This document shows positions 28,357 through 62,537 of a stretch of 64,000 nucleotides of DNA, piece after piece. How positions within the stretch are numbered: position 1 is the stretch's first letter; each line of letters starts with the position of its first letter. The notes under the pieces are model-generated. The model was not told the origin of the DNA. It saw only the letters and a program-made list of their open reading frames with translations, and made no database searches. The position numbers and the translations under genes were made by a program. The stretch lies in the NCBI RefSeq assembly GCF_963506605.1, contig NC_083279.1, forward strand, positions 51,956,001-52,020,000, read 5' to 3'. The stretch comes from Zootoca vivipara (lineage: Eukaryota).

Positions 28357-29578
28357 CTAGTGGAATTCAGCCCGTTTAAAAACGGGCGCTAGAACGCTGC
28401 TCTCGTGCAGCGCCGGCATGGGACGGGGGGTGGGAGAAGCATGGCATGGCATGGCTCCGCGCAGCGCTGATCAGCGCCGACCTGGCAGGCCGCCAGATCA
28501 AGGAAGCGGCCTGCCGGGTCAGCACCCAGCAGCGCTGCACAAAGCACCGGGGGACTGGTGGCGGGGAAGGCAGGCAGGCGCTTGCTCTCTTGCCTGCCTG
28601 CATTCCCCACCGCCTGTCACACGAAGATCGGTGGCCGCTGCTTGCCGGGGCTTGTCAACCCCAGCAAACAGCGCCCGCCTCAATTCGGCTCTGTCCCTCG
28701 ATGCGCTACGGCTCGGGGAAGCAGGCAGGGAGATGGCAACAGCCCGGGCTGTTGCCGTCTCCCTGCCTGCTTCCCCAAACCCAAGCGCGTGGGGGACTGA
28801 GCCGAATTGAGGCACGGGGGGGGGGGCTTTTCGCCATTTGCCTTCCCCCCAGGGGGAGGCAAACGACGAAAAACCCCGCCGCGCCGCACTTCGGCTCGGG
28901 GACTGGCTTGGCGGTGGGGGGAAGAAGGGGAGGAATTTCTCCCCTTCTTCCCGCCACCGCCAAGCCAGTCCGCAGCGGGGGCTTTTTGCCGTTTGCCTTC
29001 CCCCAGGGGGAGGCAAACGGCGAAAAACCCCGCCCCGCCGCAATTCGGCTCGGGGACTGGCTTGGCGGTGGGGGGAAGACTTCCCGCCACCGCCAAGCCA
29101 GTCCGCAGCGGGGGCTTTTCGCCGTTTTCCTTCCCCCCAGGGGGAGGCAAATGGCGAAAAGCCCCCGCCGCACCGCACTTCGGCTCCGGGAATGGCTTGG
29201 CGGTGGCGGGAAGAAGGGGAGGAATTTCTCCCCTTCTTCCCGCCGCCGCCAAGCCAAAGCCGCCTTCCCTTGGCGCCCGTTGCCGCTTCGGCTTCCTCCG
29301 TCCCATGCCGGCGGTGCGCGGCAAGGCTGCCGGGGGGAGCGCTTCTCTCCCCCGCCGCCTCACCGCGCACCTCCAGCATGAGACTGGGCTTTGCAGCGGG
29401 GGTTGGCGGAGCGGCGGTTGGCAGAGGGGTTGGGGGGAGAGAGAGAGCGCTCGTCCAATCCCTGTGTCCCTGGTTGTCTCTCCGTCCAATCCCTGTGTCT
29501 CTGGGGTACATGCGTAGTACCCCAGGGACACACGGGACAGCTTGGACGCAGGGACAACTTGGACTTTATTATATAGGA
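28357..29578 (-). mobile_element. Non-autonomous Helitron, intact termini
   Basis: Minus strand starts A|TCCTATATAATAA and ends CTAG|T (A/T target, no TSD). Subterminal hairpin gcccgttt-aa-aaacgggc at 28370-28387, about 10 nt from CTAG. GC-rich internal repeats. Confidence 0.9.
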
Positions 29579-30008
29579 TGTGAACCTGCTGTGTCTAGCT
29601 CTGATTGCACAGGGTGGGATGCTAACTAAAGTTCAGCAAGCTGTCGGACTGGAGGCTATGACAGCATTACAACAAATTACCTAGGATTAATAACAGTTGG
29701 TATAGTATTTAATGTAGCACTTTCAATGTAAAGCATGCTTTATAATTTTTATCCAATCCATCCTCATTACAAGTATTGGATATTGGTCACTATGATTCCC
29801 ATCACTCAGATGGTGACACAGAGATGTCTCACCAAAACCACTTGCACTTTGGATTGCGGTATCTAGTGGACAGAACCTTCCTTGGCATTTGTTTTTCCCA
29901 TTATTAAAATGATGCAGATGAATTTTCTGCAAAGTGCAGGAGGACCCTAGGAGATGTCTGGCCGCATCTCCATAGTAACACTCTGATGCACTTTCATGTA
30001 TCTCTTAC

Positions 30009-54338: not shown

Positions 54339-54394
54339 CAATAAGCTTGATATTGTTGTCGTCATCAAGCAAGAGATTTTCTATCTTCAAATCT
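54339..54394 (-). CDS. HUNK: HUNK coding exon 3
   Basis: 56 nt, tttcag|A GAT TTG AAG ATA GAA AAT...CTT ATT G|gtatga. Encodes (R)DLKIENLLLDDDNNIKLI(D), completing HRDLKxEN. Phases match exons 2 and 4. Confidence 0.96.
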
Positions 54395-56224
54395 CTGAAA
54401 CAGACAAACATGTTTAATGAGAATGCAGGCCATTAAGCTTTTGATTTTTTCAAAGTTTCAGTAACCACTGTCATTTTCCACTTGCATCAGATTGTTATTA
54501 GGATCTTAATGTTATGATCTAGAGATGGTAGAGTTATAGTCCAATGTAGTTATCATGCGGGTACACCTGGTCTAATATGTGTGGGGGCACAATCCATCAA
54601 ACAGTTCTATTCCACAAAACTGACTGAAATTAATTAGAGTTGCACCAGAATATTGTGGCTGGGAAGTCTAGTGGTATTTCCCTGCATTGCAGTATGTGTT
54701 ATGAAACCATATTAGATAGTCTCCATTTGAAAAAACGCGAGAACAGTTTTTGTACAGAGAAAACAGTTTTAAAGCCTATGTACATTTGATTTATGCTACC
54801 AAATGATATTTACTGGGTCTAGTCTTCTGCATGGAAAAGAAATGCAGGCACAATCAGGCTGAAAAACATATATCACCATAACGCAAGTGGAAGAAGGAAA
54901 GTGGTTCACTGACTTCAAAGCAGAGTTTGGGATATTCGTGGCCTTGTGTTAAACTGCATTCCTAAGGCAAACCTACAGAAGAAAAGCTAACTTTGCATTT
55001 CAAAAGGAAGCGAATCTCAGTTCTGCAGAATTCTGACATAAATATTGCACCAGCCATCAGACTGTACTTAAAATTAGTTGGCTGAATGCATCTAGAGATC
55101 AAGCAATGGGTGTCAAGAAACAAAATCTAATATGCCTGGAATAACTGTACTTGAGCGGTGCTATCAGAGACTTTCAAATGTTTTTGTCATTGGTTGCATT
55201 TTATTTCCATAGCCTCTGCAATGTTCAAAATGCTTTACAATCACTATCTCTGCCATCCTTGTAATAACCTACCTGAGGGCCTATTAATGTTACCTCTTGG
55301 AACAGAACAAGTTGCCAAAAATGCCTAAGTATTTTACTATCCTGCTAACACTTTGTTTTACTTAGCAAGAAGGAGCAAGGCCAAACTGAATGTTGTAGAG
55401 ATTTAATGTATCAACTTTAAAAAAATGCATATAGCAACAGCTGCAGGGTGGGGGTGGGAGGTGGGGAGAGATACTACCAAGACTGCACCAGGCATGGATG
55501 AGGAAATTTAACCTTTTCCTCCCCTGGAGATCTCTAAAGTAAAGTATCTCTTCTGAAGTTGCTTATGTGCATTAGAAGAAAAGTTGCCCTTATTGGGGGC
55601 AACTTCAGAAGAGAAGCTTGCAAGTTAGAGGAAGACTTATGTTTAAGTTGTACCTTCTTCTCTACCAGTACCTGCAAATAGGCTTCATCAGCTGTAAACA
55701 GCCATTCATTGAGATTCAGAACTTCAAAAAGTCACACTTTTTGAAGTGAGAGTCAGGATGGTTTAAATACCTCAGCAATGCTTCAGGGGTGATTAGAAAG
55801 TCCTTTGTTTTTATGTTTTATTGTAATTCTGTTGGTGTGAGCCGCCCTGAGCCTGGTTTTTGACTGGGGAGGGCGGGGTATAAATAAAAACTGTGGGCAA
55901 TAATGTGAATTGGAAGTCATAACAAACAAACAAAAGAACATTGTTGTTGTATTGTATGATAATCTATAAGGAAAGACATCTTTGACATTATCCACCAAGG
56001 TCTAACAAATGCCATGAGTGACCCAAGCAGATAGTATGGTGACATGGTGAATAACAAAATAGATGTATTTGGAAAGAATTAGGAATGTCCTATGACTAGT
56101 TGTTGCCTACATTCTCAACTGGTGTATCCTCTAAGTCTTCCATTACATGGCCCAATGGAGAAAACTTGGGCTATTACCAGACATAAGAGGCTGTCTGGCA
56201 GCACCTATGATGCAGAGAATGATA

Positions 56225-56641
56225 CAGTGGAACCTCGGTTTATGAACACCTCGGTTTATGAATTTTCGGTTTATGAACGCCGCGGACCCATCTGGAACGG
56301 ATTAATTCACTTTCCATTACTTTTAATGGGAAAGTTCGCTTCAGTTTATGAACGCTTCAGTTTATGAACAGACTTCCGGAACCAATTACACCCATGTTTC
56401 AGTTTATGAACGCTTCAGTTTAAGTACTTCGCGGACCCATCTGGAACGGATTAATCCACTTTCCATTACTTTCAATGGAAAAGTTTGCTTCAGTTTATGA
56501 ACGGTTACTCCGCGGACCGTCTGGAACGGATTAATCCACTTTCCATTACTTTCAATGGGAAAGTTCGCTTCAGTTTATGAACGCTTCAGTTTATGAACAG
56601 ACTTCCGGAACCAATTGTGTTCATAAACCGAGGTACCACTG
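56225..56641. mobile_element. Tigger-like (Tc1/mariner) MITE with internal tandem repeats
   Basis: TA|cagtggaacctcggtttatgaaca...tgttcataaaccgaggtaccactg|TA, containing three copies of cgcggaccc.tctggaacggattaa...ttcagtttatgaacg. Confidence 0.92.
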
Positions 56642-56756
56642 TATATGAAAAGATAATTCTTAGTTCCTTTCAAGATAGGAAATGAAGACGGAGCGACAGT
56701 GGCTTGTCCAAGGTGATACCATGGAGGTACAGCATTCAGACTTTGATCTCTTACCG

Positions 56757-58475
56757 CACGGGTGTCAGACCCAAGGCCCGCGGGCCAAATGCGGCCCGCG
56801 AGACCTCGCCATGCGGCCCGCGAGACCTCGTCATGTGGCCTAGAGCGCCAGAATGCAGGGGGCGCTGAGCAGCCCGCCCGCCGCCCGCTGGCGCCACTGC
56901 CACCGCCGCCGCCGCACTGTGCTGCCTGGGGCCGACTCCCGCGTCTGCAGGGGGGCGTAGTTGGCCCCCTGCACCAGCCCCTCCCCGCCGCCGCATCATA
57001 CCCTCTGCCAGCCAATAGGGCTCAGGGGGGCGGAGTCCAGCTGCAGCGGGAGAATTTCTCTTTGCTGGGCTTCCGGCGAGGCATCACGGCGCGCGCCACG
57101 GAGCTCCTGAGGGCAGCCAGCGTGTTCGCGCTGCCCAAAGGGCTCCTAAGCCACTGAGACCGCCGCCGCGTGAGTGCCGGGGGTTCCTGTTGGCCCCCCC
57201 CCAGCTGAACAGAGAGAGAGATCGACCCTACTGCGCAAGTGCCATTCATTTCCATGGGAGTTCGCCCTGCAAAGCCCCCTGAAATGAATGGCGGCGGCAA
57301 GAGTGGGTCGTTTCCTGAGCCATTGAGCAAGGTTAGTGGCCGCTGGAGACGCAGGGAGGGAGGGAGGGAGGCTCTCAGAAGCAGCCGGAGCCCACCCGGG
57401 CAGATTAACCCTTGGGCTGCTGGGTACCATCAGCTCATTCACCCGCTGCCTTTCTTCCGCTGCTTTCGAGAGAAGTCCGGTTAGGCGGCAAGGCTGGAGT
57501 TGCAGGCTGATGCAAAGGAAGGGGCTTGAGGAGCTGGGGACGGGGAAAGAGATCTCTGCTGGCACCAGAGAGGGATGGCTGGTCTGGCAGTTTCAGCTCA
57601 CGGAGGATTGTTTTCTGTTTGAGAAGTGGGGAGGCTATTGACAGGGAAGCGATCGCTCACTTTCCCTCTGGAGAGCTCAACAGCTGCTATCGGGCTGGCA
57701 GCGCCTTGAAATCAATTTTAAAGAGAGGGAAAGGGGAGGAGAACAAGCGGGGATGGATGGAAAGAAGGCGGGAGGGAGGGAGGGAGAGAGAGGAGGGAGG
57801 GAGGGAGAGAAGGAGGGAGGGAGGGAGGGAGGGGAGGAGGACAAGCCGGGAGCCTCTGAGGGGGAGAGCGAGAGAGCTAGGAGACAACGGGGAGCAGCCG
57901 CTTTGCAGCCGGCCTCAAGATCTCACATCTATACACTCTCCGATCGATGGCAAGGAGGGATAATATTTGTCAGCTGCAGTCCTCCCCCACCTTTTCCATT
58001 CTAACCCAAGAAGGGAGGGAGCTAATGTCTAAGAGGCATTTCCTCTCGGTTCCAAAAACAAAACAAGAATTAGCCCATTATAAAAGAGGAGAGAAGAACC
58101 CCGCAAGCGAGTAAAATCTAGTCAGAAAAGTTTAAAAAAAAGTTAATGCCTTGTGTTTGCCATATGTGTAATAAACAGTGTTTGGCAATATTTGTATGTT
58201 TTTTAAAAAAATTACTCTGTTACCAAAAATCATTTTTCAATAAATTGTACAATAATTGTACATTTGAATACCTACTTGCCATTATTCTGACTATGTTTTT
58301 GCTTTCAGAGCTAGTTATTACTTACATTATTACAAAAAACAGTAATAATTGAATGCAGTGACAATAATTTATAATAATAAAGAGTGGACACATAGTCCTA
58401 CAGATACAACCGGCCCTTTGAGGGTGAGCAAACTGCTGATGCGGCCCCCCGATGAATTTGAGTTTGACACCCCTG
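56757..58475. mobile_element. 1.7-kb non-autonomous hAT (Charlie-like) element with CpG-rich cargo
   Basis: TIRs cacgggtgtcagac / gtttgacacccctg, subterminal gcggccc motifs, and a perfect 8-bp TSD tcttaccg at 56749-56756 and 58476-58483. No transposase ORF. Confidence 0.9.
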
Positions 58476-60189
58476 TCTTACCGGTACATACATATACTAT
58501 TATAGCTCACAAAATACAGATGTGTGTATATTTTACTATCTCCCAAAGCATTGCTTAATAAACCAAGTTCAAGTGATATGCATCTTGTTCCACACTGAAA
58601 GAAATAGTGGAAAAAACAGATACACAGGAAGCTGTCTTTGCCACTGGTACATTATTAAATTCCTTTCTCTGACATTCTGACAGTAATTGCACTGAATAGG
58701 ATTGAATTTGGTTAAAATTACTTTAAAAGGGTTGTTGAGAATTTCCTGTGGGATGCTATTGCAAGCACCAAAGCCTTAACTTCATTGTCTTTGTTGTTCT
58801 TACTCCCTTAGGAGGCTTAATGCTCATCCTGTTTTTGACAGCATGAAGGCCTCTGTAAATATCTTCTAAAAAGAAAAAAGCTTCCCATATATTGCCATTT
58901 GGAATTGTTTTGTTGCTGTCAGACAAAGAGACAATGACTGCTATCTAATTCTGATTTGAGATTGATGCTTCTATGGCTTCAACAATGAACAAACCACAGG
59001 CCAAAGTTTACAGACCTTCTCAAAATGACCCCACAGAGACAGGACAGGCATCAGAAATGACTGCTTGGCAAGAGCTTTTGGCTATAAAAAGGATGTACTG
59101 TACAGTATTCTTAAAACGGGATTCTCAATTTGGCATTACAAACTTCATTAGGTCAAGGGAAAATCAGCCAAGCTTCCTCAAATGTTGCTAGGACAAGACA
59201 AACACAGACTGACAGTCATAGAATCATCTTTTACAATATAATCTGGCAACAAGCAATCCAGAAGAGCATGAAGAAGGCTACAGTACCCATCTTACATGCC
59301 TTAAAGTCCAATCAATGATGGAAGACCCTAGGGAAGCCAATAGCTCCCAAGCAAAATGACTGGGCATGGTGACTGTGTTAAAAGGAGCAGCCCTGGGCTC
59401 CTTTGGAAGGAATGGCAAGGTAGAAATAAATAAAATGAGCTCCTCTGGGATGCTACTGCTTTGGCACTTTGAACACCAAAACAGATTCTGAGAACATAAC
59501 AAGCCCTGCTGCAGCTGACTAAAGGCCCATATAGTCAAGCATCCTATTCTCACAGTGGCCAACCAGATGTTAATGGGAAGCTGACAAATTGAACAATAAA
59601 AGCACTCTTCCCACTCTGCAACTGGTATTCAGAGGCCCTCCAACACTGGGCAGAGAACAGAGTCATCACTACTAGCAGCCTCTGCTTATCCTCCATCAAT
59701 CTGCCTATCCCCCTTTTAAAACTGTCCAAAGATATCCACACTGAACACACTGAACCAAAACAAAAACAAACCATGGGGCAAACTGCACATGACAGGAACC
59801 TATGAATTTCTTTCAAAGATATTGTTAACCTCATCTCTTTGGGAAAAAACGCCCAAGGATGACTGCATTTTGTGGACAAACATTAGGAATTAGCTAAGTA
59901 AACCCTCCTTTTGGGTCCTGATTTACAGCCTTTGATTATACTTCACTGTTAAAAAAGGAAATTAGAAAAGCAATTTGGTGTAATGTTTGCCCCATTGTCC
60001 CTTCGAGTTGTTGGGAATGGGAAGGTGAAGCAGTGGGCTCATGTAGTGGCAACTCTCTGTTCTCTCATAGGATAACAGGATTCATATTATGTGAAGTAGC
60101 GGCTTTGAAATGACTAGCTCACCACCCAGAAAATTGCTGGATACTGGTGGATTGGCTACTAGGTAGCATAAGTGAGTTTACAGAACACA

Positions 60190-62244: not shown

Positions 62245-62537
62245 CTGTGAACCACCCCTGCACGATGTAGGTGTTCAACAGCCAAGATAAGCTGCCGGAT
62301 GTATTTACGTGCTTCATGCTCTTCCAGCCTCTTTTTCTCATAGATTTTGTGCATCAAGTTGCCTCCTGGGCACAGCTCCATAACAAGGTAGTAACTGTTT
62401 TCCGTTTCCAAGATATCCAGTAGCTGAGCAATGTAAGGGTGTCGGATCATCTGCTGGATCTGTCCCTCCCGCCTCAGATTCTTGGTGACATAAGTGTCCT
62501 TTTTGGCTCTTTTCTTATCAATAACTTTCACTGCCAC
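62245..62537 (-). CDS. HUNK: HUNK (hormonally up-regulated Neu-associated kinase) coding exon 2, kinase N-lobe to HR
   Basis: 293 nt, cag|GTG...CAC AG|gtgaa. Encodes VAVKVIDKKRAKKDTYVTKNLRREGQIQQMIRHP...LHRAGVVHR, which matches HUNK and includes the catalytic Lys (VAVK). Confidence 0.97.

What the first reader, a model, noticed from the sequence alone, without database searches (positions are those of the whole stretch)
56757..58475. Pack-type hAT transposon apparently carrying captured host sequence
Seen: intact TIRs and a perfect 8-bp TSD enclose about 1.2 kb of CpG-rich sequence that does not resemble a transposase, inside an otherwise AT-rich, CpG-poor intron. The cargo includes CCAAT followed by a GC box (gccaatagggctcaggggggcggagt, ~57011-57036), a strongly GC3-biased frame ending in a stop (AQGGGVQLQRENFSLLGFRRGITARATELLRAASVFALPKGLLSH*, ~57020-57157, preceded by an acceptor-like ...ccaatag), and a GGA/GAGG purine tract (57770-57840) of the kind found in 5' UTRs. 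Known: DNA transposons can capture host fragments (Pack-MULE/Pack-TIR). Inference: a recently mobile hAT derivative moved promoter- or exon-like host DNA into HUNK intron 2. I cannot name the donor locus.
Basis: partly seen in the sequence, partly recalled or inferred. Interest (0 to 1): 0.7.

Follow-up and report, generated by a model that had tools for sequence, protein, structure and literature searches.

The report
Lizard transposon spreading a BCOR CpG-island
A young cut-and-paste jumping element in an intron of the lizard gene HUNK is one of about 30 copies carrying a 0.9-kb piece likely copied once from a CpG island upstream of the developmental gene BCOR, and its sister elements carry the starts of three other genes, a kind of capture seldom reported as many copies in animals, though no effect on any gene is shown.

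Summary
Confirmed; donor found. The 1719-bp element (18-bp TIRs, 8-bp TSD) lies in a HUNK intron and is one of 30 copies (29 with both TIRs, each with its own TSD). One copy 63 kb away is identical, so the family moved very recently. The interior is two modules. 57211-58118 matches one TIR-less stretch in a CpG island 120 kb upstream of the BCOR start codon (5% substitutions; continuous with its flank in another species). The right end is the last codons and 3' UTR of a hAT transposase, and an intact 604-aa parent copy exists. Sister subfamilies with the same ends carry the starts of centlein, a RimK-family gene and an MBT-repeat gene; all four named cargoes read sense to the transposase. It is a multicopy Pack-TIR, a known but rarely reported kind. 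This scan noted the same kind in other lizard genomes. No expression or function is shown.

The parts
56749..56756 (.). left target-site duplication (8 bp)
   Evidence: identical to 58476-58483
56757..56841 (+). left end: TIR (56757-56774) and subterminal repeats
   Evidence: first 65 bp 88% to the left end of the autonomous copy L185, 82-92% to sister subfamilies
   Evidence: every other locus inspected that holds it looks like another transposon by its ends: a second hAT family, a third family (L112, 8-bp TSD) and, for the 3' 100 bp only, pogo/Tigger-like elements (family labels recalled from TIR form)
57211..58118 (+). host cargo: copy of G000 C4:45,380,435-45,381,400 (minus strand), in a CpG island 120 kb upstream of the BCOR ATG, sense to BCOR; starts in a (GA)n repeat; donor-like site at 57332 (8 of 9 consensus positions)
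   Evidence: 847/984 with gaps; 38 of 755 ungapped columns differ; BCOR; continuous with its flank in organism B
58116..58475 (+). right end: last codons and 3' UTR of the parent transposase gene, right TIR (58458-58475)
   Evidence: 93% over 363 bp to L185:7444-7799; 3-bp microhomology at the junction with the cargo
58476..58483 (.). right target-site duplication
62245..62537 (-). HUNK exon upstream of the host intron (293 nt)
54339..54394 (-). HUNK exon downstream of the host intron (56 nt)

Best explanation
This is a non-autonomous hAT transposon with a 0.9-kb piece of a BCOR-upstream CpG island between its ends, likely acquired once by a DNA template switch during repair and then spread to 30 sites, likely by the transposase of its intact parent. 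Shown: shared ends with an uninterrupted 604-aa transposase copy, a single TIR-less donor, 29 separate TSDs, stepwise loss of donor segments, and four named genes captured by the same family. Inferred: capture by template switching (gap repair or FoSTeST), mobilisation in trans by that parent, and that the HUNK copy, which points antisense to HUNK, is a neutral passenger.
For: Donor: all 32 of 32 candidates for a 361-bp cargo probe were scored, giving 30 element copies, the donor and one old duplicate. The donor has no TIR/TSD pair and lies in a 7-kb CpG island. A contig of organism B aligns for 545 nt across the right breakpoint with 13 differences and 15 gaps. Direction: the donor holds 6 of 6 marker segments, and copies keep 3, 2, 1 or 0 of them (12 of 29 copies scored). 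Copies differ from the donor by 4.0-5.3% and from the window copy by 0-2.3% (28 of 29; the L030 value is an alignment artefact). DNA-level capture: intron-side sequence after donor-like sites is kept, the 600-bp internal deletion of the MBT-gene cargo is not GT-AG, and 3 of 4 right junctions show 3-4 bp microhomology with the transposase gene. Parent: L185, 5343 bp, same TIRs, 8/8 TSD, open frame with Spin-doc zinc finger and acidic and CxxH motifs in place. Recent activity: four pairs of copies are letter-identical, two of them 63 kb and 16 kb apart with different TSDs. Family trait: TIR-less CpG-island donors for three sister cargoes; centlein named by a 100% hit plus an in-frame exon 14 kb on; RimK and MBT exons 25-35 kb and 54-58 kb downstream.
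Against: Whether the BCOR piece is promoter, first exon or intron is not shown; the link to BCOR is position and strand only (no other host coding frame seen in 177 kb in a scan for frames of 170+ aa, which would miss short exons and non-coding genes). Two RNA runs (about 6% of each read) gave no reads on the 345 bp of the captured piece that was laid. Organism D showed no contig over that part. Microhomologies of 3-4 bp can be chance. The intact parent is 93% identical at the right end, so it need not be the copy that moved this element, and its activity is untested. No empty site was seen, as it was not tested.
Confidence: 0.82

Rival explanations
1. Promoter theft: the family takes up host promoters and first exons into the leader in front of the transposase splice acceptor, where they would drive the transposase; the non-autonomous Pack copies are deletion by-products.
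For: 4 of 4 named cargoes read gene-sense in the transposase direction and each holds a donor-like site. An acceptor-like site lies 40 nt before the transposase ATG. The two autonomous copies compared share only about 90 bp of left end; the intact one has a 3-kb patchwork leader with a GC box, a donor-like site and 1.2 kb copied from a TIR-less host locus on C8. The four cargoes join the transposase gene at four different places.
Against: n = 4 and the direction was not predicted beforehand (two-sided coin p = 0.125). No autonomous copy with the BCOR, centlein, RimK or MBT cargo was seen among 5 transposase-bearing loci. The C8 piece is AT-rich island shore. No RNA test of the leader was made. 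Open chromatin or GC bias explains the choice of donors without any benefit.
Confidence: 0.15
2. The 'donor' is itself a decayed transposon copy, and the interior is ordinary transposon sequence.
For: The left module is in fact shared among several transposon families; a second, 72-83% identical copy of the BCOR piece exists on C12.
Against: The C4 locus has no element ends, holds all the segments that the copies lost, and continues into the same flank in organism B. The C12 copy runs on past the breakpoint into donor-flank-like sequence, so it is an older duplicate of the host region (read by eye). Neither autonomous copy matches the cargo.
Confidence: 0.04
3. The HUNK copy is functional: it adds an antisense promoter or a cryptic exon to HUNK.
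For: CpG-rich, promoter-like motifs; two acceptor-like and several donor-like sites on the HUNK strand.
Against: Identical to a copy outside the gene, so too young to show selection; the sites are consensus matches only; no reads on the laid part of the cargo in two RNA runs, whose tissue is unknown.
Confidence: 0.07

Closest known systems
Multicopy animal Pack-TIRs, e.g. Pack-hAT-N8_XT with 291 bp of the CAPSL 5' UTR (Tan et al. 2021, PMC8277862; read: abstract, sections 7, 9, 12, one supplement row)
   Same: hAT ends around host DNA with a TIR-less parent, distinct TSDs, GC-rich 5' cargo, proposed template switch followed by transposition.
   Different: [quoted passage not shown] Here there are 30 copies of one cargo, four named donor genes in one family, and an intact parent transposase in the same genome.
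hobo_AC and its non-autonomous families in Anolis carolinensis (Novick et al., PMC3014272; read: 12 passages from a term search)
   Same: Lizard hATs with similar ends and very different interiors; autonomous copies also take up genomic DNA; interelement recombination.
   Different: In the passages read, the filler is described as genomic DNA often holding old transposon fragments; no CpG-island gene starts or donor genes are named there. Sequence relationship to hobo_AC not tested.
Plant Pack-MULE / Pack-TYPE elements, including Pack-hAT (Gisby and Catoni 2022, PMC8903248; read: 9 passages)
   Same: Non-autonomous TIR elements shuffling host DNA; local same-orientation insertions (here the identical copy 63 kb away has the same orientation).
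   Different: Plant genomes; defined there by captured coding DNA, whereas this cargo shows no coding sequence.
Buster/Charlie/SPIN branch of hAT (features recalled; one search gave no paper that I read)
   Same: TA at TSD positions 4-5 in 26 of 29 copies; Spin-doc zinc finger in the parent.
   Different: No tree was built; no Repbase or Dfam name could be assigned.

Membership tests
hAT superfamily, non-autonomous | short TIRs and 8-bp TSD | tested here: met
   28 of 29 copies 8/8, one 7/8
hAT superfamily, non-autonomous | ends shared with an element encoding a hAT transposase | tested here: met
   L185: 604 aa, zf-C2H2_12 above cut-off, DUF4371 below cut-off, no hit to the hAT dimerisation model; motif positions read by eye
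hAT superfamily, non-autonomous | no transposase of its own | tested here: met
   6 frames scanned, 0 Pfam hits; only the last codons remain
hAT superfamily, non-autonomous | mobilised by that transposase | not testable with these tools
   needs an excision assay
Buster/Charlie branch | nnnTAnnn target preference (recalled) | tested here: met
   26 of 29 TSDs
Buster/Charlie branch | transposase groups with Buster members in a tree | not tested
   no reference set fetched
Multicopy Pack-TIR (Tan 2021) | internal non-transposon DNA with a parental copy lacking element ends | tested here: met
   57211-58118 against C4:45,380,435-45,381,400
Multicopy Pack-TIR (Tan 2021) | several copies with distinct TSDs | tested here: met
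   29 distinct TSDs in 29 copies
Multicopy Pack-TIR (Tan 2021) | cargo is genic (exon or UTR) and transcribed | tested here: inconclusive
   0 of 208 candidates at E<=1 (weak by the tool's own note); no donor among the loci inspected; only the best 40 of 96-233 candidates were scored per search

The most novel reading that the evidence does not exclude
A lacertid hAT family systematically swaps host CpG-island promoters and first exons into the leader of its transposase gene, in sense orientation, using them to drive or unsilence itself and seeding hundreds of portable promoters, including one from the Polycomb gene BCOR, across the genome within the last few million years.
Probability: 0.15. 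Interest if true: 0.8.

Novelty: new member of a known kind. Interest (0 to 1): 0.5.

Why it matters
Multicopy Pack-TIRs were reported as rare in animals and none was listed for the one lizard row found. Here donor, intermediates, 30 copies and an intact parent sit in one genome, so the order of capture, trimming and amplification can be read directly. The family also offers a natural experiment: the same CpG-island fragment at 30 positions shows whether island identity (low methylation, Polycomb binding, initiation) travels with the sequence or is lost inside a transposon.

Tried and rejected
Segmental duplication or assembly artefact for the identical copy 63 kb away: rejected, different TSD and no flank similarity. 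Coding cargo: no protein or Pfam hit. Structured RNA: 0 Rfam hits in 5 loci. Host donor of the left module: four searches and inspection of the loci fetched from the first three gave only other transposons; the best candidate, L112, proved to be a TSD-bounded element. C12:25.417 Mb as donor: rejected, too diverged. Parent by Pfam PF05699: none of 30 loci fetched (of 74 matches) carried these ends; it was found by a DNA probe instead. No solved-structure hit for the transposase. No RNA holder was listed by the run search. Donors of the L114, L210 and L035 cargoes and the gene at the C8 donor were not identified (L035 not searched). Literature: searches showed no listing on Pack-hATs in lacertids or on BCOR capture; one search found no paper on BCOR promoters; subscription journals are not covered. 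PMC12001565 was seen as abstract and outline only and is not used as support.

Full report
Observation. The element spans 56757-58475 with 18-bp TIRs (83% complementary) and a perfect 8-bp TSD. Its interior is CpG-rich against the flanks. The host gene is HUNK on the minus strand; the element sits between a 293-nt and a 56-nt exon, which is intron 2 by recalled human exon sizes. The genome is a lacertid lizard's: a nearby-family exon is 100% identical to a Zootoca vivipara protein.

A young family. The whole element found 30 long matches besides partial ones; 29 have both TIRs, each with its own TSD, 26 of 29 with TA at positions 4-5, and one is truncated at the left. Two cargo probes were scored exhaustively (32 of 32 and 31 of 31 candidates), so 30 is close to a full count for this cargo. 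Four pairs of copies are letter-identical; the window copy's twin lies 63 kb away in the same orientation with a different TSD and unrelated flanks. With a recalled rate of 1-2 per billion sites a year, no difference in 1719 bp suggests well under a million years; this is an inference.

The donor. Positions 57211-58118 match one locus without element ends, C4:45,380,435-45,381,400 on the minus strand, 6.6 Mb from the window (847 of 984 columns, 94 of them gaps; 38 of 755 ungapped columns differ outside the purine tract). It lies in a 7-kb CpG island. The BCOR Pfam model hits 138 kb further on, on the same strand, and the BCOR start exon, found with a recalled motif, is 120 kb away; between them is a chain of CpG islands with no other long host frame. 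A contig of organism B crosses the right breakpoint with 250 bp of flank and 290 bp of cargo, so the stretch is host DNA in another species; organism D showed no contig there. The donor holds six marker segments, of which copies keep three (L030), two, one or none (12 copies scored), and in the tree rooted on the donor the copies that keep more markers lie nearer the root. This gives one capture, then trimming and bursts. A 72-83% copy on C12 runs past the breakpoint and is read as an older duplicate of the host region. Two RNA runs, about 6% of each read, had no reads on the 345 bp laid; the other 620 bp, which hold the most start-like motifs (recalled YY1- and NRF1-like words and an 8-of-9 donor site), are untested. 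The cargo is therefore BCOR-upstream island DNA; 'promoter' or 'first exon' is only an inference.

The left module. It had 233 candidates, 40 scored. Each non-family locus inspected looked like another transposon: a 1.4-kb hAT family, a third family with 8-bp TSD, and pogo/Tigger-like elements that carry only its last 100 bp (labels recalled from TIR form). The frame has no ATG in this copy, a marginal GC3 excess, no protein hit and no Pfam hit. In its favour, two indels against a sister version are multiples of three (read by eye), but L112 breaks the frame. It may once have been a host gene start; no donor was found.

The parent. A probe from a sister element's longer right end found five new loci, all with transposase sequence. 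One, C14:30,461,456-30,466,798, is whole: 5343 bp, same TIRs, 8/8 TSD, an uninterrupted 604-aa frame with a Spin-doc zinc finger. The element's right 360 bp are its last codons and 3' UTR (93%), joined to the cargo over a 3-bp microhomology. The parent's own 3-kb leader is a patchwork that includes 1.2 kb copied (94-95%) from a TIR-less locus beside a CpG island on C8; a second, broken autonomous copy has a 355-bp leader instead.

A family habit. Elements with the same ends carry other interiors. Among 50 TIR- and TSD-bounded entries in my loci (two are duplicates of BCOR copies), 29 carry the BCOR cargo, 6 an MBT-gene cargo, 5 centlein, 2 a RimK-gene cargo, 1 the transposase and 5 other interiors; this sample is biased by my probes. 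The three donors are TIR-less CpG islands: centlein's first coding exon with its donor site and in-frame next exon, and islands upstream of RimK and MBT exons (RIMKLB and SFMBT1 by recall; the link is by position and strand). All four read sense to the transposase. Another subfamily has at least 40 copies (40 of 423 candidates scored).

Mechanism. Shown: shared ends, donors, copy numbers, polarity of loss. [quoted passage not shown] (PMC8277862, sections 9 and 12); kept intron-side DNA and a non-GT-AG deletion argue against an RNA intermediate. Two other family copies lie 28-39 kb from the BCOR donor, which fits but does not prove a nearby founder. The bolder reading, promoter theft for the transposase, rests on four orientations and one patchwork leader.

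Standing. Tan et al. found four multicopy cases (1.4%) in 100 genomes and list none for the anole; Novick et al. describe anole hATs that take up genomic DNA. My searches showed no listing on lacertid Pack-hATs or BCOR capture. Unchecked notes of this scan report the same kind in other lizard genomes and a Helitron with island cargo in this one. Verdict: a real, well-resolved new member of a known kind; interest 0.5.

Noticed in passing
window 56222-56644: Pogo/Tigger-like MITE (28-bp TIR, 96% complementary) 112 bp left of the element (label recalled).
   Followed up: no
L028, L029 (C7:40.70 Mb, C3:118.31 Mb): A 90-bp palindromic MITE with an 8-bp TSD nested at the cargo/right-end junction of two copies; the same MITE occurs in the BCOR island.
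   Followed up: partly
C4:45,341,585-45,343,890 and 45,351,138-45,352,913: Two family copies of another subfamily inside the BCOR upstream island chain, 28-39 kb from the donor.
   Followed up: partly
L114:389-1861 (C3:49.49 Mb): Sister subfamily with a 1.2-kb CpG-island-like interior and at least 40 copies at 94-100%; donor not found.
   Followed up: partly
L210-L212: Subfamily with a triple-CCAAT promoter-like cargo whose exon-like end also appears in the leader of the intact autonomous copy.
   Followed up: partly
L051:5038-5900 (C12:25.417 Mb): Old CpG-depleted duplicate of part of the BCOR island and its flank, with no element ends found.
   Followed up: partly
C4:45,308,606-45,312,637: A 1344-codon open frame of a copia-like retrotransposon (label recalled) upstream of BCOR.
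   Followed up: no
L161:200-480 (C6:34.61 Mb): Intronless WW-domain-like sequence resembling a WWC/KIBRA retrocopy (recalled) beside a broken transposase copy.
   Followed up: no
window 28360-29580: A second GC-rich, CpG-rich (o/e 0.68) internally repeated block, probably another mobile element.
   Followed up: no
L049:548-1367: A whole element of another family is nested inside the MBT-gene cargo in some copies.
   Followed up: no
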